From a virus: 64,000 nucleotides of DNA. The notes under the pieces were generated by a model. That model had not been told where the DNA came from. It saw only the letters and a list, made by a program, of their open reading frames with translations, and did no database searches. Below, one piece after another: positions 16,150 through 48,912 of this stretch. The position numbers and the translations under genes are program-made. Numbering within the stretch: the first letter of the stretch is position 1; every line of letters starts with the position of its first letter. The DNA is taken from IMG/VR virus record IMGVR_UViG_3300045988_116681, positions 48,632 through 112,631 of that record. One strand, written 5' to 3'.

Positions 16150-19100
16150 TTATTCCTCCTTCGGCTCATAACCATATCTGTAACTTTGTAACTCCATTGT
16201 ACCATCATCTTCATTGATTGTCAAGATTTTTTGTAGCTTGTGTGGGAAGATACTATTCTTATAAGACTTAACGCGGAATGTATCTTCACTACGATAACCA
16301 GTAAGAACAAGACCTTGACCGCGAGTAAACCAGCTTGTGTCCATTACAGTTTTTGTGCCGTCTGCGTGTTGTTCGCTAATCTGTTGCTTGTAAAATGGAT
16401 AAGAGTGATTGTCGAAACGAGCTTGTACTACATTGTTATTAGAATCAAGCACAGTAATAGTTGAATGAGCGTCATTTCTTGCTATCACCGTACCCATAAT
16501 TCGACTAAGCTGATACTGTCGCCATTCACGCTTGCCGTACTTCTTAGTAACAAATACTGGTTCAGTAGGCAACTTATCAAACGTAGTAACATTGTATCTA
16601 TCAGCGTCAATGCAAGCCAATTCATGCTCATTAGAATAATAGGATAGTGCTTCAAAACTCCAATGATTGACGTTCATGTTAGGCAACTTATCACGCATAC
16701 GAGCCTTGATAGATTGTTCGTTATACATCTTTAGGAACTCTGGCTGGTTAATATAAGCCTTTAGTTCTTCAGTAACGTTCTTGAATAGTTTCTCAAGCGA
16801 CTTATCAACAACAAGCGTTCTGCCTTCCTCATCATACCACCAATCTACGTTCTCTTCAAGTTGACTACGGCACATTGAATCGAAGAAAACTAATGCTCGT
16901 TCGTCAAGCCAATAGATTTTCTTTGACTTGAACTTGGGGTGTGTGCCATAGAGGAATTGCTTTGAGCAAACGTATTTTTTGAAGGCGAGTGGCATGGTAA
17001 GGGTGTTGGGTAGCTTACAGCCAATGCGTTGTAATTCAGCCAAATTAGCAGTGGTAAGCGTTTGTTTGCGAGGTGTAGAAAGAGCGAAGTACGCTTGCAT
17101 GACGCGCATACGGTCAGGACAGAACTCATCAAAACAGCCAGCCTTGATTAGTTGGATAAACTTGGATGGTGTGATAAGTGTGCCTTGATATGAGTTGCGT
17201 GAATAGAAGTCGCGGAAAGAAGAGTAGGGGCGGTTAGTGATAATTTGTTGAGCAATTTCTGCGTTAATGGAAGAGATGCCACCTAAACCGAAAAGAATAG
17301 TGTTATTTGCTTCATCAACGCCAAAAGACATTTCTGCATGATTAGCTGGTGGTGGGGCAACGGAAATACCATTTTCTTTAGCCTTATATACAGAGCCAGC
17401 AATCTTACCGTAGTCCGTAGTATTAGCCACGTTATCACGTTCATCTTCTACGCCAGCTTGGGTAATTACGACAGCGGCGTTCCAATAAATCTTAGGGAAC
17501 TTGTAGTAAAGATTTAGTTCTTGCAGACATTCAGTGCTGTACTCGTTAGAGTGGCTAAAGTCGAAGGCGTAAGATTTGGACATTTCAATTTGTACTTTCC
17601 ATAGATAGTCAAGAAAAGCCTTAGTTCTACCACATTCTGCGCCCTTACGGTACAATCTTTCTTCGGTTTCTGCAAGTGCTTCGGCGTTTTTCTTTGCAAC
17701 CGCCTTCCTCGCCTTATCCGATTCCTTTAGATTGAAGTTGCACACACGCTCATCCATTAGCACGCTCATCATGGTACTTTGAGCAATCATAAGACCACAA
17801 TAGTTGCCAAGTAGTTCTTTAAGGATTTCTTGCTCTTCTTGTGGAATGCCATAATTGGTCATATCTTGATACCATTCATTGATATTCTTACGATAGCGAA
17901 CATACATATCCATAGGTTGTTCACCATCAGCAACAGCAAGACGCATTAGACCATTGGCAAGCGTAAGTTCGGTAAGATTCTGAGCGCCGATTTTACGCAA
18001 TGCTTCTTTACCCGCCTTAGAATCATACTGAAACGCAGAAGCCATAGTAGGTAACAAGTCCCACATTTCTTTTGTTGTCTTATCAAGTTTGTCGTAAGAC
18101 AAGTAATAATTGTAAGTATCTCTGAGCGAACCCTTATCTTCAATTTTACCGTTCTTTAATAGTAGTTCCATGCATGTTCTAATGGTTTGTAGACAGTCGA
18201 TAGACAACAGGTCGAACTTGAGGTCGCCCGCATATTCAGCGTCATGCAAGTTAAATTGACTGCATACAGCACCATTAGAAGATACCATGTAACTACCTGT
18301 TTCTGTGTAATCGCCTTGAAGCACGTTAAGTGCGCCAGCGTGAACGCCAGAAGAAACAATCATACCTTCAAAAGCAAGTGCAGTTTCAAGCAAGTCGCCA
18401 TACTTTTTTACTTCTGCGACAAATTCTGGCACGGGTGCTCTGCCCTTCTTTTCATTACCATACAAGCAATCTTTAAGAGAATAGATAGAGCCACGGACAG
18501 TAGGAATCAAAGACTTGATATATCCCACAGTATCAGAAGAGATACCCAGTCCAGTTGCGGCACGTTCAAGTGCTGTCTTTGCAGACAACCTGCCCCATGT
18601 TACGCATTGACAAGTTCTGCGCCAACCAAAATAGTCTTTAATAGCTTGAATAATTCGCTCTTTCTTAAAACTTTGAATATCAATATCACAATCGAAAATG
18701 CTTTCCGAACGAGCAATAGAACAGAAACGCCACCAAGGGTAAAATTCTTTCGTTTCTGGGAGCATAGGGTCAATACCAGTGATGTTCAATAACTTATTAG
18801 TAAGATAGCAACCAGCCGAACCACGACCAATGCCAACATAGCTATCGCCTTCAGTCCAAATAAGGTCTACTACCTTTTGCACAACAGTAAAATAATCTGC
18901 CATACATTCACCATCAAATGCTTCACCCAATCCTTTAACTTGCTCCATTTCAATGTTAATCTGAGCAAGATATTCTTCAATATTCACTGGATGAATATTA
19001 TTGTATTCGTATAGTCCTTTTTCTACTTGATAATAGTAGTACCGTTCATTAAGCGTACCTTCAGTAGCATAATATTTTACAAAAGGAAATTTATCATAAT

Positions 19101-20079
19101 AGTCCTTATAGTAATGCTTAATTTCAAATTCTGGAATCTTAGGCAATGCGGGTACACGAGTGGTCTTTTTAATGGTAATAGGCTGAACCTTGTCAGCAAT
19201 CTGATTAGTCGTGTCAAATAATACGTCAATCATTTCGTCATTAAAGCCACTTACATACATTTGTTCTCTAAGTTCTTGCGGAGTAAACAGATAGGTGGTC
19301 TGATAGAACTTCTCAGGTTCACGAGAATCACCGCCGTCTTTAGACTTTAGAAAAGCTGTATGAATCTTTCTATCTTCTGGACGCATGAAATGAGAATCAG
19401 TAGTAACAATAATAGGAATGTTTAACTGTTCATGCAACTTCCACAATGAATTGTTGACCTTAATCTGTTCTTCGTTATCTTCCCAGCAAGGCTGACATTC
19501 AAGATAGAAATTATCCTTGCCAAACGTTCGCCAATTCCACTGAATAAATTCTTTGGCTTTAGCCGTATCGCCAGTAAGAATGCACTTAGGCAAGAACCCG
19601 CCGATACATCCTGTGCTAACCGCCAAATGACCCTTGTCTTTACCTACGACTTCTTCAAAGTCTGAATAAAAACTTGGTCTGCGCAACTGACCTTTGTAAG
19701 TATAGCTTCTAAGCCATGCTCTTGCGGATAATTCATACATTTGCTTTAGACCAATCTCATCCAATACAATTACCAAATAATGCCAATAGTATGGACGGTC
19801 GTTTTCGCTAAAGCGCAGATTATCTTCTTCTTCTGACAGCAAATAAAACTCATTGGCAAAGATATGTTGGAACGGACGCTGTTTGTCCAAAGCATTGTAT
19901 GCTTTTTCAAGTTCTACATATCCGCTTACAGTTTGGTGGTCTGAAATAGCATAACCTCTCAGACCATTTTCATAGCACCAGTTTACACATTTAGGGATAT
20001 TGCAAATAGCGTCAGCAAAACGAAGAACAGCGGAACTGTATTCACTGTGATTGTGTAGTGAAGTATATGTGTTAATCAT
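16150..20079 (-). CDS. dnaE: DNA polymerase III alpha subunit (DnaE-type, PHP domain)
   Basis: 1309 aa. N-terminal PHP motif HNHSEYS, then polymerase core motifs. Confidence 0.9.
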   Translation of the reverse strand: MINTYTSLHNHSEYSSAVLRFADAICNIPKCVNWCYENGLRGYAISDHQTVSGYVELEKAYNALDKQRPFQHIFANEFYLLSEEEDNLRFSENDRPYYWHYLVIVLDEIGLKQMYELSARAWLRSYTYKGQLRRPSFYSDFEEVVGKDKGHLAVSTGCIGGFLPKCILTGDTAKAKEFIQWNWRTFGKDNFYLECQPCWEDNEEQIKVNNSLWKLHEQLNIPIIVTTDSHFMRPEDRKIHTAFLKSKDGGDSREPEKFYQTTYLFTPQELREQMYVSGFNDEMIDVLFDTTNQIADKVQPITIKKTTRVPALPKIPEFEIKHYYKDYYDKFPFVKYYATEGTLNERYYYYQVEKGLYEYNNIHPVNIEEYLAQINIEMEQVKGLGEAFDGECMADYFTVVQKVVDLIWTEGDSYVGIGRGSAGCYLTNKLLNITGIDPMLPETKEFYPWWRFCSIARSESIFDCDIDIQSFKKERIIQAIKDYFGWRRTCQCVTWGRLSAKTALERAATGLGISSDTVGYIKSLIPTVRGSIYSLKDCLYGNEKKGRAPVPEFVAEVKKYGDLLETALAFEGMIVSSGVHAGALNVLQGDYTETGSYMVSSNGAVCSQFNLHDAEYAGDLKFDLLSIDCLQTIRTCMELLLKNGKIEDKGSLRDTYNYYLSYDKLDKTTKEMWDLLPTMASAFQYDSKAGKEALRKIGAQNLTELTLANGLMRLAVADGEQPMDMYVRYRKNINEWYQDMTNYGIPQEEQEILKELLGNYCGLMIAQSTMMSVLMDERVCNFNLKESDKARKAVAKKNAEALAETEERLYRKGAECGRTKAFLDYLWKVQIEMSKSYAFDFSHSNEYSTECLQELNLYYKFPKIYWNAAVVITQAGVEDERDNVANTTDYGKIAGSVYKAKENGISVAPPPANHAEMSFGVDEANNTILFGLGGISSINAEIAQQIITNRPYSSFRDFYSRNSYQGTLITPSKFIQLIKAGCFDEFCPDRMRVMQAYFALSTPRKQTLTTANLAELQRIGCKLPNTLTMPLAFKKYVCSKQFLYGTHPKFKSKKIYWLDERALVFFDSMCRSQLEENVDWWYDEEGRTLVVDKSLEKLFKNVTEELKAYINQPEFLKMYNEQSIKARMRDKLPNMNVNHWSFEALSYYSNEHELACIDADRYNVTTFDKLPTEPVFVTKKYGKREWRQYQLSRIMGTVIARNDAHSTITVLDSNNNVVQARFDNHSYPFYKQQISEQHADGTKTVMDTSWFTRGQGLVLTGYRSEDTFRVKSYKNSIFPHKLQKILTINEDDGTMELQSYRYGYEPKEE

Positions 20080-25689: not shown

Positions 25690-26547
25690 TCACATAAAAG
25701 CAGAGGTTTGAATCTTAGTAACCATGTTGCTTAGAGCAACAGCAAGTTCTTGCCTTGTTACTTGCTTAGTAGGATTGAACTTACCGTGATTATCGCCCTG
25801 CATAACGCCATACTTTGTTACGATTTCAACAGCGTCACGCGCCCAATCGTCAACATTATCCTTATCTTCGTACATCGCCAAAGGGTCTTTCTTTAGGTAA
25901 ACGCAAAATGCGCTATCAACCTTGCGATTCTCAGAAGGATTGTTTACAACCTTGCCGTTGTGTAGCTTTCTTACGCTACCACCGCCATCAAGGTTCATAG
26001 CATAAACTGCATGATATTGTAGAAAAATTGCAGTCATTTGCTCAAAAGTCATACCGGGCTTATCTACGGTCAGCACAAGAACATTACCAGTCTCAGTAAT
26101 GCCAATAGCGGTACGAGCCGTTCTGTAATTCAGTGTCTTAGCATTGCCATATTCCTTGTTTGCCTTGCCGTCAATAACCAGCATAGGATAAGCGGTCATA
26201 AAGTCGCGCCATTCCTTTTCGTTATCCTTGCCATACTGTAGCGTCTGCGCCTTATAGCAAGTAGTACCCATGCCTACAAAGCCGTTCTTATAGTTTTGCT
26301 CAGTGTACATAGACACGAACGACATGACATTGTGCCCTGTTTTCATATCAAACAAACCGCCATTTACCATGATGTTCGGCTTGTTCTCGGCACGATTATA
26401 GTAATGCTCAAGCATCTCTGTCGGCTCTGCCAACTTACAGAACCTTACTTCTTGAATGCTGTCAAAAGGGATAATATCAAGCTGTGTGTATTCATTTACA
26501 CGCACAGTCTGAAAAGACATATATTCATTCAAAACAAATCTCTCCAA
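25690..26547 (-). CDS. phosphodiester glycosidase (NAGPA-like) with a C-terminal SLH domain
   Basis: AMNLDGGGS is the phosphodiester glycosidase signature. The C-terminal DDWARDAVEIVTKYGVMQG..FNPTKQVTRQELAVAL is SLH-like. The start is uncertain: TTG 26547 or 26532. Confidence 0.65.
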   Translation of the reverse strand: MERFVLNEYMSFQTVRVNEYTQLDIIPFDSIQEVRFCKLAEPTEMLEHYYNRAENKPNIMVNGGLFDMKTGHNVMSFVSMYTEQNYKNGFVGMGTTCYKAQTLQYGKDNEKEWRDFMTAYPMLVIDGKANKEYGNAKTLNYRTARTAIGITETGNVLVLTVDKPGMTFEQMTAIFLQYHAVYAMNLDGGGSVRKLHNGKVVNNPSENRKVDSAFCVYLKKDPLAMYEDKDNVDDWARDAVEIVTKYGVMQGDNHGKFNPTKQVTRQELAVALSNMVTKIQTSAFM

Positions 26548-28247
26548 TCGTCATCGTCAGCAAGCGACTTAACCTTGCTCTTAGGCGCAATCTCGTACTG
26601 TTGAATCATAGCTTGAGGATAGTAGCGACCGTTCCATTCGTTTGTGCAAAGGGTTACTATTGCTTCAAACGTGAATTTGTCATACTTTTCCCATTCAGCG
26701 GATTGTTCTTCGCTTAATCTAAACTTGATAAAATCTACGCCGTAAGCACTGATTTTACCTGTTGTTGTTTTCTTTCTGAATAAACGAACCCAGTTTTGAT
26801 AGCAAGTAAACTTGACATAAAACGTAGGTTCAACAACACCGCTACCTGCGCTACCCCACATATCTTTGTATTCTTCACAGTTCATACAGAGTGGAAGATT
26901 GATTTGCTGTGGAGTCAACCTTGCTGTAACATCTATTGTATCACAAATTACATCATTTGTCAAGTGCGAATCAAGATATTTTAGAAGTTTTTTTAGATTG
27001 GCTTTAGGCATGATTAAGCCAGAAGCACACTCGTGACCTTCAGCCTTGGCAAGTCGTGATTCATTGATGATACTTGCAATGGGGAAAGGTGAGCGCATAC
27101 TACCAGAGTATTGTGTTGGATTGACTGGACGCAGGATGAAAGACGGCTTATTCACAAGTGATAACATCTTATTCGCTACCAGTCCAGTATAGTTAGCTTG
27201 CTCATTCTCGATAAATCCAACAGCGGCTTTATGCTCGTTATCCATATCTTCTGTAATTGTAGACATAATCTCGTCTACAGTTTTGCGTTGTTCGTTTACA
27301 GCCTTGCGAAGAACGGCAATACCACCTGCCATATCACATTTGCCAACAAGCGACTCAAAGAAAATCCGCTTGCCTTCTTGGTCATTACTGCGACATAGAG
27401 CGTTGATTGGTGGAATACAACCAAAGGAAAAGCCGTGTGGGTCTGTTTCACCCTTGTAATTTAACGTCTGCACAAGTTCATTTAGTTCTGGCGCGTAGGC
27501 AAGATTCTTAATTCCGTCTATAAAATATGTTCGGTTTTCAAGACTTGTCATATCACATACATCGCTAATTAGACTAACGGCGATAAAAGGGGTATATTCT
27601 TGATAATTTCTAATCTCGGTAATTGGGTCTAAATAAAGTTCGCCATATCGCTCAATCAGCTTAAAGGTAACACCTGTACCTGACAAAGCTGTATTTAGTC
27701 CATTACCAAGATGATGATTGACCACTGTGGCATAGTTATTGCTTGTGGGCGTGGTTTCATGGTGGTCACATACGATGGTCTGCACGCCATTTTCCTTCAG
27801 CGTCATACAAGGTTCATTGTCGGAACTGCCAGCGTCAGGAATGATTAGTAGCTTTGCACCAGAATCAATGACTTGTTGTACCATATTTTCTTCTGGTGCT
27901 CTCAAGCCATGTTGCTTCGCGGTATGGAATAGAACTTGAATTTTGTCTTGAGGAACGTCAAGATACTCTTTTAGAAATTTGTACATGATTGCGCTTGAAA
28001 GATTGCCGTCAGTATCGCTGTCAACGCAAATCGCAACTTTTTCGCCCTTTTCAACCGCTGTCTTAATCTCAGCACAAGCATCATCAATGTTAGGATAATC
28101 GCCAGCGTAATCATAGCAATAAGCCACATCGCCATTGCCAGAGAGGTCGATATAACGCTCGACCTCATCTGCCTTCACGCCACAAGCTACCAGATATTCA
28201 CGAATGAAATCTCCTGTGACTTTATTTAAGAGTGGGCGTACCTTCAT
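26529..28247 (-). CDS. DHH-family phosphoesterase (RecJ-like ssDNA exonuclease)
   Basis: VDSDTDGNLS, IIPDAGSSD and VCDHH (DHH motifs I-III). Confidence 0.75.
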   Translation of the reverse strand: MKVRPLLNKVTGDFIREYLVACGVKADEVERYIDLSGNGDVAYCYDYAGDYPNIDDACAEIKTAVEKGEKVAICVDSDTDGNLSSAIMYKFLKEYLDVPQDKIQVLFHTAKQHGLRAPEENMVQQVIDSGAKLLIIPDAGSSDNEPCMTLKENGVQTIVCDHHETTPTSNNYATVVNHHLGNGLNTALSGTGVTFKLIERYGELYLDPITEIRNYQEYTPFIAVSLISDVCDMTSLENRTYFIDGIKNLAYAPELNELVQTLNYKGETDPHGFSFGCIPPINALCRSNDQEGKRIFFESLVGKCDMAGGIAVLRKAVNEQRKTVDEIMSTITEDMDNEHKAAVGFIENEQANYTGLVANKMLSLVNKPSFILRPVNPTQYSGSMRSPFPIASIINESRLAKAEGHECASGLIMPKANLKKLLKYLDSHLTNDVICDTIDVTARLTPQQINLPLCMNCEEYKDMWGSAGSGVVEPTFYVKFTCYQNWVRLFRKKTTTGKISAYGVDFIKFRLSEEQSAEWEKYDKFTFEAIVTLCTNEWNGRYYPQAMIQQYEIAPKSKVKSLADDDDWRDLF

Positions 28248-29874: not shown

Positions 29875-30144
29875 TTAGTCTTTCTTTGGAACAGTATAAG
29901 ACTTAGCATTAGTGCTATCGCCCAACCCTGCTGTGGTAGGGTCATTGAGCGCGTTCCAAATATTTGATGCAACAAGGAATAGGCAGTAAGGATTTGATAC
30001 AGTGCCCTTAATCACGTTCCATACGCCCATCCAAGTTGTGAGGTCTGCCGCTGTCAGACCTGCATAAGCAAGTGCAGTGGCAAAAGCACCAATAATGATT
30101 TGTACCCAAAAGGTCGGGTTCTTAATTCTCACTTTTAGATTCAT
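29875..30144 (-). CDS. holin (Phage_holin_1 / LL-H type)
   Basis: KNPTFWVQIIIG..TWMGVWNV..NPYCL..DPTTAGLGDS pattern, directly downstream of the endolysin. Confidence 0.8.
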   Translation of the reverse strand: MNLKVRIKNPTFWVQIIIGAFATALAYAGLTAADLTTWMGVWNVIKGTVSNPYCLFLVASNIWNALNDPTTAGLGDSTNAKSYTVPKKD

Positions 30145-30147
30145 ACT

Positions 30148-31878
30148 TTATTCCTCCCCATACATACCCGCTCTATCGTTAATAACAAGAACTCGTAGCA
30201 AATCTTCACTCAAGTCAAGACCCTTGCCATTGCCCTTGAGATAGCCCTTGTCTACCAACTTCTTAATAGTTGCCTTGCCCCAGTCTGGAACTTCAGCAAC
30301 ACTATTATATACCTTATTATACTTGTCGTATACTTGTTCAGCAATCTTACCAGCCACTTGATTAGCAATCTTCTTTGCTTCGGACTGAGCAATAGCTGTA
30401 GTTTCTGCCTTAGTCATGTCATCAACCTTTCTAACCATTTGTAAAAATTCTGTCCATTGTTCATAGTGTTTTACAAAAGGTTCAGGACAGTTACCAACAA
30501 TAAAAGTTCTTCCCTTTTGACGAATAAGAATATATCCTGTTGGCACACTTACACACGAAACTCGTGCATTTCTTTTTTCAACACTATATTGTTTATCACC
30601 TATTGTATAATTACAAGTGGCAATATCTACACTATCATAATGATATTTTTTATAATGATTTTTAGCATGAAGAGCCTTTTTTGCCCTCATTCCATGCGTA
30701 GCACAAATAGCTTGAACAACGTCTAAATTTTTTTCAATAACGGAGCAATAATTATTTTTTGCTACGCATCCATCAACTTGTAACAATTCTTCCCAAAAAA
30801 CTTCAAATTGATTTTGTGTCATTTCAATCCAATCATAGGTAAATTGTTTATCAGATAACCATTTGCAACACCAATCATAAGTAATTTTGTCAAATTTTAC
30901 ATAAATTAGAGTACTTCCATCATTTTTATAAGAAATCTGAGGAACAATTTCCATTTCATTTAACAAAGACAGTAATCTATCAATTTTTCTTTGTCTTTTA
31001 AAATGGAACTCGATACCATAAATTGAATTAGAAGGTTTCCATCTTCTATAATGACCATCACCTTGAAGCCATACTAAAAAACGAATTTCATTGTCTGAAA
31101 GAGGTAGACCTTTATTTTCATAAAAACCGTTGGTTTTTATCATGGTTGTTCTGCCTTTGTCAAGAATCTCTTGATAAGATTTTTCTTCCCATCTCTCGTT
31201 AGCGTGATAAAAACGCGCCCACATACGGTGATTAGCAGTAGCTTCAAAATTATGGTTCTTTAGAACTTCAGCTTCGTAAGGCTCAACCACGCTACTAACA
31301 GCGCCAAAAGATAGTCTATCAGTATTAGTGTCATACTGCATAACTTCTTCTCCAACCTTAATATCTCCAAGAGCCTTCCAACCTTCTCGTGTTAGAAGTT
31401 CGGTTGAATCCAAAGGTAAACAATACTTATGCGTAACATGATAGTGCATACACACATGGTTAATATCAATACCATACTGTTCCATTAGCCACTGTACCAG
31501 CTTTACAGTGCGCTTCTGGGTTTCCATAGTAATTACATATTCACCGTTCTTCCAGTCGCTACACATTTCAATACCAATGGAATTAACGTTGCGACAGCTA
31601 TTGTAATAATAGCCTGTTTCACTACCACAATGCCATGCTGTGTTAGCAAGGTTTACAGTCTGCCAAATTTCATTCTCGTCAACAAAGAAATGTGCGCTTG
31701 CATTAAGCCCACCGCAACGAGCAAAATAATCTGCATTGTTCTTTGCAGTATCGCCCTTGCCAGCAGTAAAGTGAATAACAATCCATTGAATCTTATGCTT
31801 TACGCCATTCTTAGTTCGACCATACATGAAATTAGATTCATTACATTGCTTAAATTGAAAATAAGGTTTTTCTGCCAT
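30148..31878 (-). CDS. N-acetylmuramoyl-L-alanine amidase endolysin (Amidase_2) interrupted by an intein
   Basis: The exteins join as ..HVTHKY|CPEPF.., restoring the K.CP zinc-ligand motif. The N-extein carries the AHFFVD and GIEMC motifs. The C-terminal tail is a putative wall-binding region. Confidence 0.85.
   Translation of the reverse strand: MAEKPYFQFKQCNESNFMYGRTKNGVKHKIQWIVIHFTAGKGDTAKNNADYFARCGGLNASAHFFVDENEIWQTVNLANTAWHCGSETGYYYNSCRNVNSIGIEMCSDWKNGEYVITMETQKRTVKLVQWLMEQYGIDINHVCMHYHVTHKYCLPLDSTELLTREGWKALGDIKVGEEVMQYDTNTDRLSFGAVSSVVEPYEAEVLKNHNFEATANHRMWARFYHANERWEEKSYQEILDKGRTTMIKTNGFYENKGLPLSDNEIRFLVWLQGDGHYRRWKPSNSIYGIEFHFKRQRKIDRLLSLLNEMEIVPQISYKNDGSTLIYVKFDKITYDWCCKWLSDKQFTYDWIEMTQNQFEVFWEELLQVDGCVAKNNYCSVIEKNLDVVQAICATHGMRAKKALHAKNHYKKYHYDSVDIATCNYTIGDKQYSVEKRNARVSCVSVPTGYILIRQKGRTFIVGNCPEPFVKHYEQWTEFLQMVRKVDDMTKAETTAIAQSEAKKIANQVAGKIAEQVYDKYNKVYNSVAEVPDWGKATIKKLVDKGYLKGNGKGLDLSEDLLRVLVINDRAGMYGEE
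30490..31422 (-). mobile_element. intein (311 aa) with a LAGLIDADG homing endonuclease, inside the endolysin
   Basis: Starts CLPLDSTELLT..GDIKVGEEV (Hint N-terminus) and ends ..ILIRQKGRTFIVGN|C (Asn plus Cys+1). Two LAGLIDADG-like motifs: LVWLQGDGH and LLQVDGCV. Confidence 0.8.
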
Positions 31879-47652: not shown

Positions 47653-48912
47653 TTACATTTTTATTGTTTGAATCATTTGCGTAGTTCTTGCTGTAATTCT
47701 TTTACATCTTTGGAGTTTTGGTGTTTTATATCCTCTTGGCAAATAAGAAAAATTAAGACGGTTTCCTTCAAAATCCATTAAAACGACTTGCCCTTGTATA
47801 CCTCTACCTTTAATATAACATTCTACTCCAAAATATCTGACTTTATCAAATTTTCTGAACCCGTTAATTTTTGTTGTGGTTATACGCCTTTCAGACCGAA
47901 CACCTTTTGTTTGCTGAAAGTCGCCTTCGGGAACACATTTCTTTTTATAAAGATTGGTATTTATTGTAAAATTTTTACCTTGTGTCGCTATTACGCAAGC
48001 ATCATAATAATGTTCTTTATCCACTTTTAATTGCAAACGATTAAACTTAGTAATATATCCATAAGTCTCTATTGCTTGCGGATATAATCTAAAAAGCTGT
48101 GTTCGTATACTATTCATTTGAGTGGCAAATTTGAGAACACCTTTCGCTTTTCCTTCTTGCTTGAGAATTATTTTCCCATTGTGTAATTTTTTATGACAAG
48201 TATGACAGAGAGTTATCAGATTGTTTTCTTCGTCAGACCCACCTTGGCTACGAAAAATTATATGATGAACTTCCAATCTTTTATCTTTATGTTTATTTTT
48301 ACAATATTGACAAGTATAGTTATCACGATTAAGCACCTTTGCTTTTGTGTTTTCAAACCCATAATTGACTCCTTTTTGATACCCCCAATGTCGAATTTCA
48401 GCGTTAGCAAGCAAAGGGTTTTTCAACAAATGAGTATCAAATTGGCTTGTTTCAAATACTATTTCAGAAATAGGCAAAATACTTTTAATAAATTCTATTT
48501 CTTTCACATGACTATACAATTTACTTACCATTGTTGGGCTAAACCGATTTTTTCTAAAAGAGTTAGCACGATTTAACCATCTTGGTTTTCTATAACGAGT
48601 TTTACGACTTCTTCTGTTTCTACGATAAGAAGCTCTACGAGTCATTTTATTAGTAATATTATTTCTTACTATTACTTCTGACATATATACTATCTTTCCC
48701 TTATCCGTAGCCACAGCCGTACCAAAAGTTCCGCTTCCAGTATCAACACCCAAAGTCAATTTTTGAATATAATTTGTAGAATCGTTAAGCAGTTTAATCG
48801 TAAAAGGTTCACGCCTTTTTACTTTTGCTTTACCTTGTTTAAGTAATAATCTTGCAATTACATTTGTGCAAGGCATTAAGGGCTTGTTGTTTTTAGAAAC
48901 TACATAAACCAT
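47653..48912 (-). CDS. iscB: IscB RNA-guided nuclease (PLMP, split RuvC, HNH)
   Basis: KPLMPC (PLMP), LGVDTGSGTFG (RuvC-I), Arg-rich bridge helix RRASYRRNRRSRKTRYRKPRW, EIVFETSQFD (RuvC-II), CQYC..HHIIFRSQGGSDEENNLITLCHTCH (HNH), HYYDACVIA (RuvC-III). Confidence 0.9.
   Translation of the reverse strand: MVYVVSKNNKPLMPCTNVIARLLLKQGKAKVKRREPFTIKLLNDSTNYIQKLTLGVDTGSGTFGTAVATDKGKIVYMSEVIVRNNITNKMTRRASYRRNRRSRKTRYRKPRWLNRANSFRKNRFSPTMVSKLYSHVKEIEFIKSILPISEIVFETSQFDTHLLKNPLLANAEIRHWGYQKGVNYGFENTKAKVLNRDNYTCQYCKNKHKDKRLEVHHIIFRSQGGSDEENNLITLCHTCHKKLHNGKIILKQEGKAKGVLKFATQMNSIRTQLFRLYPQAIETYGYITKFNRLQLKVDKEHYYDACVIATQGKNFTINTNLYKKKCVPEGDFQQTKGVRSERRITTTKINGFRKFDKVRYFGVECYIKGRGIQGQVVLMDFEGNRLNFSYLPRGYKTPKLQRCKRITARTTQMIQTIKM

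What the first reader, a model, noticed from the sequence alone, without database searches (positions are those of the whole stretch)
30490..31422. LAGLIDADG intein inserted at the zinc-ligand cysteine of the endolysin amidase
The 576-aa lysin is an Amidase_2 enzyme split at ..THKY|C...N|CPEPF... The insert has the boundaries of an intein: Cys1, Hint blocks, a terminal Asn, and Cys+1. It carries two LAGLIDADG motifs. Inteins normally sit in replication, nucleotide-metabolism or terminase genes, and I do not recall one in a lysis enzyme. Splicing becomes a prerequisite for lysis, so splicing kinetics or redox sensitivity (Cys1 and Cys+1) could affect lysis timing. The penultimate residue is Gly rather than His.
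Basis: partly seen in the sequence, partly recalled or inferred. Interest (0 to 1): 0.7.

Follow-up and report, generated by a model that had tools for sequence, protein, structure and literature searches.

The report
Self-splicing intein inside a phage endolysin
A phage cell-wall-cutting enzyme (endolysin) is interrupted exactly at one of its zinc-binding residues by a mobile, self-excising protein element (an intein with its own homing nuclease); related inteins turn out to sit in well over a hundred lysin families in metagenomes, and I found no published description of them.

Summary
The minus-strand ORF 30148..31878 encodes a 576-aa Amidase_2 lysin, followed by a holin. Residues 153-463 (window 30490..31422) are a 311-aa insert, ..THKY|C...VGN|CPEPF.. 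Removing it restores a complete Amidase_2 profile, with Cys+1 at the position of the zinc-ligand Cys of PlyL, LysGH15 and LysBT1.

The insert is a real intein:
- It is homologous end to end to inteins in phage primase, polymerase, RNR and the Bethlehem gp51 intein, which has been shown to splice.
- An AlphaFold model (pLDDT 95) matches TliVMA, PI-PfuI and PI-SceI.
- Cys1, block B T..H, both LAGLIDADG Asp residues, Asn311 and Cys+1 are conserved in 109 lysin inteins.
- The penultimate Gly is a family trait, not a defect.

Uninterrupted homologs exist. Intein and extein divergence disagree, which indicates mobility. The endonuclease domain is under purifying selection.

It is not a one-off. About 100 representative clusters are lysins, with at least four insertion sites in Amidase_2 and two in Amidase_5. 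There are also mini-intein and double-intein alleles.

Cultured phage records and the searchable literature show no lysin intein. The idea that splicing controls lysis timing is untested.

Verdict: a new member of a known kind, of moderate interest.

The parts
30148..31878 (-). Endolysin precursor ORF, 576 aa plus stop (67.0 kDa).
   Evidence: ORF list. Pfam Amidase_2 E 1.3e-22. The identical protein occurs on 21 metagenome contigs and JGI names it 'N-acetylmuramoyl-L-alanine amidase CwlA'.
31423..31878 (-). N-extein, residues 1-152. This is most of the Amidase_2 domain, with Zn ligands His36 and His145, catalytic Glu104 and Lys151.
   Evidence: phmmer alignment to PlyL 1yb0, PlyG 2l47 and XlyA 3hmb. 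Residue roles come from LysGH15 (H214/H324/C332, E282) and LysBT1 (H31/H147/C156, E108, K154). Positions.
30490..31422 (-). Intein, 311 aa (36.5 kDa): a Hint splicing domain with a LAGLIDADG homing endonuclease nested inside it.
   Evidence: Boundaries. Full-length homology to phage inteins. AlphaFold pLDDT 94.9. Foldseek matches TliVMA, PhoVMA, PI-PfuI and PI-SceI, and I-DmoI for the nuclease part. GC3 is 0.20 against 0.35 in the exteins.
31378..31422 (-). Splicing block A, CLPLDSTELLTREGW, with nucleophile Cys1 (precursor residue 153).
   Evidence: Cys1 is conserved in 109 of 109 lysin inteins from the first search and in 201 of 204 in the wider set.
31219..31248 (-). Splicing block B, FEATANHRMW, with Thr62 and His65 (the TxxH motif).
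   Evidence: T62 and H65 are invariant in 109 of 109.
31048..31077 (-). LAGLIDADG motif 1, LVWLQGDGHY, with catalytic Asp122.
   Evidence: Asp is present in 108 of 109 and Gly in 109 of 109. The structural match to I-DmoI has TM 0.64 normalised to the target.
30763..30792 (-). LAGLIDADG motif 2, EELLQVDGCV, with catalytic Asp217.
   Evidence: Asp is present in 107 of 109. The endonuclease domain has dN/dS of 0.04-0.31 against three relatives.
30517..30564 (-). Splicing block F, RVSCVSVPTGYILIRQ, with an invariant Cys290 at position F:4 (usually Asp in class 1 inteins) and invariant Arg301.
   Evidence: Cys is conserved in 109 of 109. It is also present in Bethlehem gp51, Turj99 TOPRIM, Vequintavirus polymerase and Silviavirus RNR inteins.
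30490..30510 (-). Splicing block G, RTFIVGN, with penultimate Gly310 and terminal Asn311.
   Evidence: Gly and Asn are each conserved in 109 of 109.
30151..30489 (-). C-extein, residues 464-576. Cys464 is both the +1 splicing nucleophile and the third Zn ligand of the amidase. It is followed by the end of the amidase fold, a linker and a C-terminal domain.
   Evidence: The Cys aligns with PlyL C137 ('kyC-P'). The +1/+2 residues are Cys-Pro in 105 of 108 homologs. The Pfam profile is completed only after splicing.
29875..30144 (-). Holin gene immediately downstream (89 aa), which identifies the lysin as the phage's lysis enzyme.
   Evidence: PHROG 297 holin, E 3e-14. Pfam Phage_holin_1 is recorded on the orthologs in relatives.

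Best explanation
The 933-bp segment is a mobile intein with the features of class 1 (canonical-mechanism) inteins, inserted in frame in the phage's Amidase_2 endolysin gene. It lies between the catalytic Lys151-Tyr152 and the zinc-ligand cysteine.

The gene is translated as a 67-kDa precursor. In that precursor 311 residues separate the third zinc ligand and the end of the amidase fold from the rest of the active site, so the precursor is most likely inactive (inferred).

The Hint domain then excises itself in four steps (all inferred from the conserved residues and from a relative that has been shown to splice):
1. Cys1 forms a thioester with Tyr152.
2. Cys+1 (Cys464) attacks that thioester.
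3. Asn311 cyclises and releases the 36.5-kDa intein.
4. An S-to-N shift leaves ..HKY-CPEPF.. in a 30.5-kDa lysin, where the same Cys+1 now binds zinc together with His36 and His145.

The nested LAGLIDADG endonuclease is expected to cut intein-less lysin alleles at the conserved site, so that the element is copied in during co-infection (inferred from the conserved catalytic residues and the sequence comparisons).

The most likely reason it sits here is selfish. An invariant active-site motif gives a stable homing target and makes imprecise loss costly. Lysis timing is still expected to be set by the adjacent holin.
For: Boundaries and host domain:
- Exact boundaries, and restoration of the full Amidase_2 profile on removal.
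- Cys+1 aligns with the Zn-ligand Cys of solved amidases. Mutating that Cys abolishes amidase activity in LysGH15 and LysBT1.

Intein identity:
- End-to-end homology to annotated phage inteins.
- Homology to the Bethlehem gp51 intein, BLASTP E 2e-13. That intein has the same ..GN end and the same F:4 Cys, and was shown to splice to completion.
- The profile of lysin inteins hits intein chains in PDB, best 6zgq at E 8.6e-6.
- AlphaFold model pLDDT 94.9, pTM 0.91. Foldseek top hits are TliVMA, PhoVMA, PI-PfuI and PI-SceI, E 7e-11 to 7e-8. BFVD hits are intein-bearing polymerase, RNR and other proteins, TM 0.75-0.85.
- Cys1, T/H of block B, Cys F:4, Gly, Asn and Cys+1 are conserved in 100% of 109 lysin inteins. 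The LAGLIDADG Asp residues are conserved in 98-99%.

Absence from homologs:
- Intein-less homologs span the junction without a gap (P0106, P0108 and P0113-P0120).

Mobility:
- Exteins that are 94-99% identical (dS 0.16-0.38) carry endonuclease domains only 49-53% identical (dS 1.3-2.5).
- Conversely, inteins 72-77% identical sit in exteins only 36% identical.
- A 138-aa mini-intein allele occupies the same site.
- GC3 is 0.20 against 0.35 in the exteins.

Function in a viable phage:
- dN/dS of the endonuclease domain is 0.04-0.31.
- The identical precursor is on 21 contigs, 14 of them 50-200 kb.
- A holin gene lies immediately downstream.
Against: - Nothing here shows splicing or DNA cleavage by this protein.
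- The intein lacks both the penultimate His and the block-F His that usually assist Asn cyclisation, and it has Cys instead of Asp at F:4. Its chemistry may therefore depart from the textbook class 1 scheme.
- Pfam and NCBIfam intein and LAGLIDADG models do not reach threshold on it.
- No closely related intein-less allele of this particular lysin lineage was found. Ongoing homing into this lineage is therefore inferred from sequence incongruence, not seen directly.
- Three relatives have Pro in place of Cys1. This could mean that some copies are decaying.
Confidence: 0.83

Rival explanations
1. The intein is a regulatory switch as well as a passenger. Splicing would be conditional, for example blocked by a Cys1/Cys+1/Cys F:4 disulfide or by zinc held between the extein histidines and a junction cysteine. 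Active lysin would then appear only under certain cytoplasmic conditions, which would help set lysis timing.
For: - Three invariant cysteines lie at the splice junctions and at F:4.
- Cys+1 is itself a metal ligand.
- Redox- and stress-responsive inteins with catalytic cysteines are documented. They are listed (Msm DnaB, PMC6195587) and cited in Kelley 2016 (SufB).
- The intein appears fixed in this lysin lineage. There is no close intein-less allele among 5.8 billion clusters.
- In the relative gp51, tuning of the penultimate residue changes the splicing rate.
Against: - There is no evidence of any condition-dependence here.
- A holin gene directly downstream is the expected lysis clock.
- The signals of mobility, a mini-intein derivative and compositional foreignness fit a selfish element without need of a function.
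- Relatives of the same intein family sit in many unrelated enzymes.
- The nearest tested relative splices fast and completely.
Confidence: 0.12
2. The insert is a decayed or non-splicing Hint-type domain, either BIL-like (bacterial intein-like, cleaving without ligating) or inert. On this reading the ORF is a disabled lysin, or it yields separate fragments, and lysis depends on another enzyme.
For: - The penultimate His is absent and no Pfam intein model matches.
- A few relatives have lost Cys1.
- A second cell-wall-directed protein (NAGPA + SLH, 25690..26547) is encoded nearby.
Against: - All residues needed for splicing are present, including the +1 nucleophile that BIL domains lack, and they are 100% conserved.
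- The extein halves are under strong purifying selection, dN/dS 0.01-0.12. They rebuild a complete Amidase_2 domain only if ligated.
- The identical ORF recurs on 21 contigs of a large phage.
- A family member with the same Gly-Asn end splices.
Confidence: 0.04
3. The insert is an ordinary accessory domain of this lysin family, or it is an intron removed at the RNA level rather than a protein-splicing element.
For: Group I introns in phage lysin genes are common: 20 of 205 staphylococcal phages, and S. thermophilus phages.
Against: - The reading frame is continuous through the insert.
- The insert folds as Hint plus LAGLIDADG.
- It is bounded by Cys...Asn|Cys.
- Homologs from cultured phages and solved structures lack it.
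Confidence: 0.01

Closest known systems
Mycobacteriophage Bethlehem gp51 (RDF / metallophosphoesterase) intein, Kelley et al. 2016, PMC5050341
   Same: - Same intein family: BLASTP E 2e-13 over residues 10-311.
- Similar size, with a nested LAGLIDADG endonuclease.
- It has Cys1, Cys at block F:4 and a ..Gly-Asn C-terminus.
- It is inserted inside a metal-ligand motif (GNHD|) of its host enzyme.
- It was shown experimentally to splice completely, and G-to-H at the penultimate position slows splicing.
   Different: - Only 23% identical.
- The host is a phosphoesterase involved in DNA transactions, not a lysis enzyme.
- The +1 residue is Ser, not a metal-binding Cys.
Inteins of phage TOPRIM primase (Turj99), Vequintavirus DNA polymerase and Silviavirus/T5-like ribonucleotide reductase
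   Same: The closest relatives among cultured phages, 26-28% identical end to end. They share the V-x-C-V-x-V-P block F and the G-N terminus.
   Different: All are in replication or nucleotide-metabolism genes. None of the 275 cultured-phage records with a relative of this intein was seen to carry it in a lysin, judging from the 40 best and 60 evenly sampled rows.
PI-SceI, PI-PfuI, TliVMA and PhoVMA inteins (solved structures)
   Same: Overall two-domain architecture, a Hint splicing domain with a LAGLIDADG endonuclease. Foldseek E 7e-11 to 7e-8, TM up to 0.67.
   Different: - 8-12% sequence identity.
- These are archaeal or yeast inteins in ATPase and RNR hosts.
- From my own knowledge, they have the canonical penultimate His. 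This was not checked here.
Group I introns in phage endolysin genes (staphylococcal phages; S. thermophilus phages, Foley 2000)
   Same: A self-splicing element interrupts the lysis enzyme gene, so that a splicing step precedes active lysin.
   Different: The intron is removed from the RNA, so no precursor protein exists. The intein is removed from the protein, and it uses an active-site residue of the enzyme as its own nucleophile.
Class 3 inteins (WCT motif; e.g. AceL NrdHF 6zgq, MchDnaB1; PMC7664689)
   Same: Both have an invariant Cys at block F:4. A class 3 intein is the best sequence-profile hit in PDB. The family is phage-associated.
   Different: The window's intein keeps Cys1, has Met (not Trp) at B:12 and has Val (not Thr) at G:5.

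Membership tests
Intein (Hint-fold protein-splicing element), class 1 | N-terminal nucleophile (Cys, Ser or Thr) at position 1. | tested here: met
   Cys153 of the precursor is Cys1. It is invariant in 109 of 109 lysin inteins.
Intein (Hint-fold protein-splicing element), class 1 | Block B TxxH motif. | tested here: met
   T62-A-N-H65. Both T and H are invariant.
Intein (Hint-fold protein-splicing element), class 1 | C-terminal Asn followed by a Cys, Ser or Thr at +1. | tested here: met
   Asn311|Cys464. Asn is conserved in 109 of 109 and +1 Cys in 108 of 108 homologs.
Intein (Hint-fold protein-splicing element), class 1 | Penultimate His (block G:6). This is usual but not obligatory. | tested here: not met
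   Gly310, invariant in the clade and in its relatives. Kelley 2016 shows that phage class 1 inteins often lack this His and that a Gly-bearing relative splices completely.
Intein (Hint-fold protein-splicing element), class 1 | Hint fold. | tested here: met
   AlphaFold pLDDT 94.9. Foldseek to the intein structures 7qsu, 7qst, 1dq3 and 1vde has probability 1.00.
Intein (Hint-fold protein-splicing element), class 1 | In-frame insertion that is absent from homologs and whose removal restores the host domain. | tested here: met
   The Pfam profile is completed as 3-131 of 131 after removal. PDB amidases and 370 cultured-phage lysins are uninterrupted.
Intein (Hint-fold protein-splicing element), class 1 | Autocatalytic excision with ligation of the exteins. 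| not testable with these tools
   This needs expression and mass spectrometry. The only experimental support is from the homologous gp51 intein.
LAGLIDADG homing endonuclease (monomeric, two-motif) | Two LAGLIDADG helices, each ending in a catalytic acidic residue. | tested here: met
   LVWLQGD122G and ELLQVD217G. Asp is conserved in 108 of 109 and 107 of 109.
LAGLIDADG homing endonuclease (monomeric, two-motif) | LAGLIDADG alpha-beta-beta-alpha-beta-beta-alpha fold. | tested here: met
   Foldseek to I-DmoI (2vs7, 1b24), E 5e-6, TM 0.64 normalised to the target.
LAGLIDADG homing endonuclease (monomeric, two-motif) | Site-specific cleavage of the intein-less allele. | not testable with these tools
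   The support is indirect only: dN/dS of 0.04-0.31 and intein/extein incongruence.
Amidase_2 (PF01510) zinc N-acetylmuramoyl-L-alanine amidase, acting as endolysin | Profile match above the curated threshold. | tested here: met
   87.2 bits against a cut-off of 26 for the spliced protein. PHROG endolysin, E 9e-38.
Amidase_2 (PF01510) zinc N-acetylmuramoyl-L-alanine amidase, acting as endolysin | His-His-Cys zinc triad plus catalytic Glu and Lys. | tested here: met
   His36, His145, Cys464 (+1), Glu104 and Lys151 align with PlyL H29, H129, C137, E90 and K135. The triad is contiguous only after splicing.
Amidase_2 (PF01510) zinc N-acetylmuramoyl-L-alanine amidase, acting as endolysin | Lysis-cassette context. 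| tested here: met
   A holin gene lies 3 bp downstream. The same order is kept in relatives.
Class 3 intein | No N-terminal nucleophile, and the Trp(B:12)-Cys(F:4)-Thr(G:5) motif. | tested here: not met
   Cys1 is present, B:12 is Met and G:5 is Val. Only Cys F:4 is met.
Bacterial intein-like (BIL) domain | Hint domain lacking the +1 nucleophile, so that it cleaves rather than splices. | tested here: not met
   Cys+1 is present and invariant. The definition is from PMC7664689.

The most novel reading that the evidence does not exclude
Lysin inteins may be more than passengers, in either of two ways.

(a) They may form a widespread post-translational gate on phage lysis. The zinc-ligand or catalytic residue of the lysin is held hostage as the +1 nucleophile. 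Redox state or zinc would then control when active enzyme appears.

(b) This intein family has both Cys1 and Cys F:4 invariant, no assisting His, and natural Pro1 variants that keep everything else. It may be able to splice through the block-F cysteine. That would make it a living intermediate between class 1 and class 3 inteins, a transition that structural work has called hard to explain (PMC7664689).
Probability: 0.15. Interest if true: 0.8.

Novelty: new member of a known kind. Interest (0 to 1): 0.5.

Why it matters
Inteins are held to concentrate in replication, repair and nucleotide-metabolism proteins. Kelley 2016 reported that every phage intein host binds nucleic acid. Here an intein sits in the enzyme that ends the infection cycle, at a residue that serves both splicing and catalysis. 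It represents a large clade that standard domain models do not recognise.

This matters in four ways:
- **Annotation.** These lysins are currently labelled 'amidase' or 'hypothetical', and their length is misleading.
- **Endolysin mining and engineering.** Precursors cloned as they stand need splicing to be active. A natural lysin-intein pair could serve as a conditional lytic switch.
- **Intein biology.** Lysis gives a simple phenotype for asking whether an intein is neutral or regulatory.
- **Splicing classes.** The Cys1 + Cys F:4 family, with its Pro1 variants, bears on how the splicing classes evolved.

Tried and rejected
- Megablast of the locus against 50,697 phage records found no match, so the phage has no close cultured relative. 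By its PolIII-alpha protein, the nearest are Enterocloster phages (39%) and SPbeta-like phages (34%).
- Pfam and NCBIfam scans of the insert gave nothing above threshold, only LAGLIDADG_WhiA at E 0.02-0.08. Single-sequence phmmer against PDB gave only marginal intein hits, E about 0.3. Homolog alignment, profile search and structure prediction were needed.
- A degenerate 'empty-site' DNA pattern (..HVTHKY-CPEPFV..) scanned against IMG/VR gave 0 hits. No intein-less allele closer than about 56% identity appeared in the protein search. I therefore could not show a recent presence/absence polymorphism for this lineage.
- Nine full-text searches and reading of the candidate papers found no report of an intein in an endolysin or amidase. 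The library lacks most subscription journals, so this is not proof of absence.
- I considered and rejected four readings: an ordinary domain, a group I intron, a BIL domain and a class 3 intein (see the membership table).
- I looked for further copies of the intein family in the window's six frames. Only this one is present. PolIII-alpha, the helicases and the primase of the window show no intein domains.
- I did not use the second structure job on the precursor. Only confidence values are returned, not coordinates, so it could not show whether the active site is disrupted.
Full report
**1. The observation**

The minus-strand ORF 30148..31878 encodes 576 aa. THKY|C places Cys1 at residue 153, and ..IVGN|CPEPF places Asn at residue 463. 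The insert is therefore 311 aa and maps to window 30490..31422, exactly the reported coordinates.

Pfam finds Amidase_2 at residues 28-153 of the precursor. After the insert is deleted, it finds a complete profile match (positions 3-131 of 131, E 1.6e-24). PHROGs call the spliced product an endolysin (E 9e-38) and the ORF 3 bp downstream (29875..30144) a holin.

The insert is compositionally foreign. GC dips to 0.27-0.29 in its centre, and its GC3 is 0.20 against 0.35-0.36 in the exteins.

**2. The insertion point**

phmmer against PDB aligns residues 22-154 with PlyL (1yb0), PlyG (2l47) and XlyA (3hmb), ending at '..kyC-P'. Without gaps around these positions:
- His36 matches PlyL His29.
- His145 matches PlyL His129.
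- The junction Cys matches PlyL Cys137.
- Glu104 and Lys151 take the places of PlyL Glu90 and Lys135.

LysGH15 (H214/H324/C332) and LysBT1 (H31/H147/C156) show that this His-His-Cys triad binds the catalytic zinc, and that mutating the Cys abolishes amidase activity.

After splicing, the residue at that position is Cys464, the +1 nucleophile. The intein therefore lies between the catalytic Lys-Tyr and the third zinc ligand.

**3. The insert is an intein**

Pfam and NCBIfam do not recognise it. This probably explains why sources call the identical protein 'amidase CwlA', and call a homolog in Planobispora 'hypothetical'. Other evidence is clear.

- **Sequence homology.** tblastn against 50,697 phage records finds 275 records. 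In 260 of them at least 80% of the insert is matched, at 22-28% identity, within DNA polymerase, primase, RNR, methylase, phosphoesterase, RtcB and other genes. Some are annotated as intein-containing.
- **Shared ends.** Translations of three of these show the same ends and blocks: C...VYCV.VP....GN|C/S.
- **A relative that splices.** The Bethlehem gp51 intein is a homolog (E 2e-13, aligned over residues 10-311) with the same F:4 Cys and Gly-Asn end. Kelley et al. showed that it splices completely and that Gly-to-His slows splicing.
- **Conserved residues.** An alignment of 30 lysin inteins has these invariant: C1, T62, H65, Q120-D122-G123, D217-G218, C290, R301, G310 and N311. The same holds over 109 sequences.
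- **Profile search.** The profile of that alignment hits intein chains in PDB.
- **Structure.** The AlphaFold model is confident (pLDDT 94.9, pTM 0.91). Its best PDB matches are endonuclease-containing inteins (TliVMA, PhoVMA, PI-PfuI, PI-SceI), with I-DmoI matching the nuclease domain. BFVD gives TM 0.75-0.85 to intein-bearing viral proteins.

**4. It is not an ordinary domain**

The solved amidases lack the insert. All 370 cultured-phage matches to the spliced lysin are single uninterrupted pieces across the junction. One example is Agathobaculum phage AB434P3, where query residues 12-261 match within 690 nt. Intein-less homologs also occur among the metagenome proteins.

**5. It is, or recently was, mobile and under selection**

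I compared the window with three related phage contigs.
- Exteins are 93-99% identical, with dS of 0.16-0.48.
- Against P0002 and P0003, the endonuclease domain is only 49-53% identical, with dS of 1.3-2.5. The first 46 intein residues are identical in the one comparison inspected (P0002).
- This pattern indicates exchange of intein alleles by recombination, not co-divergence.

Across 107 lysins the reverse also occurs: inteins 72-77% identical sit in amidase domains 36% identical.

dN/dS of the endonuclease domain is 0.04-0.31, and its catalytic Asp residues are retained in 98-99% of copies.

A 138-aa mini-intein with no endonuclease occupies the same site in the lysin of a ~131-kb phage. It is found on 17 contigs and lies next to a holin gene. 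That is the expected late stage of the homing cycle.

The window's exact precursor is on 21 contigs, 14 of them 50-200 kb, so it belongs to a circulating phage.

No close intein-less allele of this lineage was found.

**6. The wider picture**

*Same site.* The first protein search returned 108 clusters (90% identity) with the intein at this same site. They are Amidase_2 lysins carrying many different wall-binding or second catalytic domains: PG_binding_1, SPOR, SH3, CW_7, ZoocinA_TRD, LysM, glucosaminidase and CHAP.

*Family size.* An exhaustive search of 1.84 billion representatives found 3010 clusters at E<=1e-3 and 97 at E<=1e-30. Nearly all of the top ~100 are peptidoglycan hydrolases.

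*Insertion sites in Amidase_2*:
- After the first zinc His (..IHH|C), in L007, P0135 and P0188.
- ..EAN|CAWH, in P0212.
- ..TAWH|CGN, in P0121 and P0178.
- Before the zinc Cys, which is this window's site.

*Insertion sites in Amidase_5*:
- Before the catalytic Cys (SYD|CSS), in P0107.
- After the catalytic His (GH|TG), in P0181 and P0184.

*Double inteins.* P0121 and P0135 each carry two inteins in one amidase domain.

*Cultured phages and literature.* None of the 100 cultured-phage matches whose annotation I saw is in a lysin. Full-text searches found no report of a lysin intein. Payne and Hatfull state that none of 224 mycobacteriophage lysin A genes is interrupted.

*A known parallel.* Group I introns in lysin genes are well known. 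Lysin genes are thus established targets of self-splicing elements at the RNA level.

**7. Mechanism and its uncertainties**

The residues fit class 1 splicing: Cys1, TxxH, Asn and Cys+1. The penultimate Gly is a family trait and is compatible with efficient splicing.

Two features are unusual. There is no block-F His. Position F:4 is an invariant Cys rather than Asp.

The best sequence hit in PDB is a class 3 intein. However, the class 3 Trp and Thr are missing from this intein.

Three divergent lysin inteins, and one genome locus, begin with Pro instead of Cys. They keep every other feature and all have Thr at G:5. This hints that the F:4 Cys may be able to act as the nucleophile in this family. 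I could not test that.

That the precursor is inactive, and that the endonuclease cuts empty lysin alleles, are inferences.

A regulatory role in lysis timing is possible, given three junction cysteines and a metal-ligand +1 residue. It is unsupported, and the adjacent holin is the expected timer.

**8. Context of the window**

The lysin-holin pair lies within the replication module of a large uncultured phage. That module includes:
- A PolIII-alpha-like polymerase, 39% identical to that of Enterocloster phages and 34% to that of SPbeta-like phages.
- RecD/Dda-like and DnaB-like helicases.
- A primase.
- A RecJ-like exonuclease.
- A Sak4-like protein.
- A free-standing HNH endonuclease.

The Phage_holin_1 gene and an SLH-domain enzyme next to the module suggest a Gram-positive (Bacillota) host with an S-layer.

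**9. Verdict**

The element is a new member (a new host gene and insertion site) of a known kind, within a known phage intein family. It represents a sizeable lysin-associated clade for which I found no published description. Interest is moderate.

Noticed in passing
P0125, P0130, P0185 (proteins); L005:3001-3921: Three divergent lysin inteins, and one locus in a Paludibacteraceae MAG (metagenome-assembled genome), start with Pro ('PLPI..') instead of Cys1. They keep an intact ORF, block B T..H, Cys F:4, the LAGLIDADG Asp residues and Gly-Asn|Cys. All have Thr at G:5. They are only 31-47% identical to each other, so Pro1 is either old or arose more than once. Either they are dead copies or they splice without an N-terminal nucleophile.
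   Followed up: partly
window 30517-30564 (block F); all 109 lysin inteins; L001, L002, L003, L004: Cys at block F:4 is invariant across the whole intein family, including inteins in primase, polymerase, RNR and Bethlehem gp51. This position is usually Asp in class 1 inteins and is the nucleophile in class 3 inteins. The family also lacks both the penultimate His and the block-F His.
   Followed up: partly
P0121 (983 aa), P0135 (1037 aa): A single Amidase_2 domain carries two inteins of this family at two different active-site motifs. In P0121 the sites are TAWH|CGN and ..NTS|CP. In P0135 they are ISIH|S and ..STA|CPG. The two inteins in each protein are only 26-34% identical to each other.
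   Followed up: partly
L007:3001-3918; P0188; P0212; P0178; P0107; P0181; P0184: Related inteins occupy at least five other sites in peptidoglycan hydrolases: three more in Amidase_2 and two in Amidase_5 (before the catalytic Cys and after the catalytic His). Each site lies at a conserved active-site residue.
   Followed up: partly
L064:8001-9125 (P0057; also L065, L066): A 138-aa mini-intein with no endonuclease domain sits at the same Zn-Cys site in a 374-aa lysin. The lysin follows a Phage_holin_6_1 gene in ~131-kb phage contigs and was seen on 17 contigs.
   Followed up: partly
L063:5921-8714 versus window 26529-28247: In the relative that carries P0003, the RecJ-like DHH gene appears to be interrupted by a 247-aa ORF with a faint LAGLIDADG_3 hit, probably an intron or a free-standing homing endonuclease. 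In the window the RecJ-like gene is intact at 572 aa.
   Followed up: no
window 47653-48912 (-): A free-standing RRXRR + HNH endonuclease gene (419 aa) lies within the replication module. It is another likely selfish element.
   Followed up: no
window 25690-26547 (-): A 285-aa protein has a NAGPA phosphodiester-glycosidase domain and one SLH domain, and overlaps the end of the RecJ-like gene. It may be an accessory cell-wall-polymer enzyme and hints at an S-layer-bearing Gram-positive host.
   Followed up: no
Enterocloster phages CB457P2, CB473P1 and CB473P2 (hits H42-H44): The PolIII-alpha gene of the nearest cultured relatives matches in three separate pieces with annotated 'DNA endonuclease' genes in between. 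It is a single 1309-aa ORF in the window (16150-20079).
   Followed up: no
L064:14110-16865: The ribonucleotide reductase large subunit of the mini-intein phage is called as two adjacent ORFs (294 and 527 aa). This suggests an intron or another interruption.
   Followed up: no
BFVD A0A8S5NZS4 (rank 35): A 561-aa 'TIGR02594 family protein' from an uncultured myovirus matches the intein model at TM 0.78. From memory, not checked here, this family is a cell-wall-hydrolase-like phage protein, so this may be a further lysin-type host already present in UniProt.
   Followed up: no
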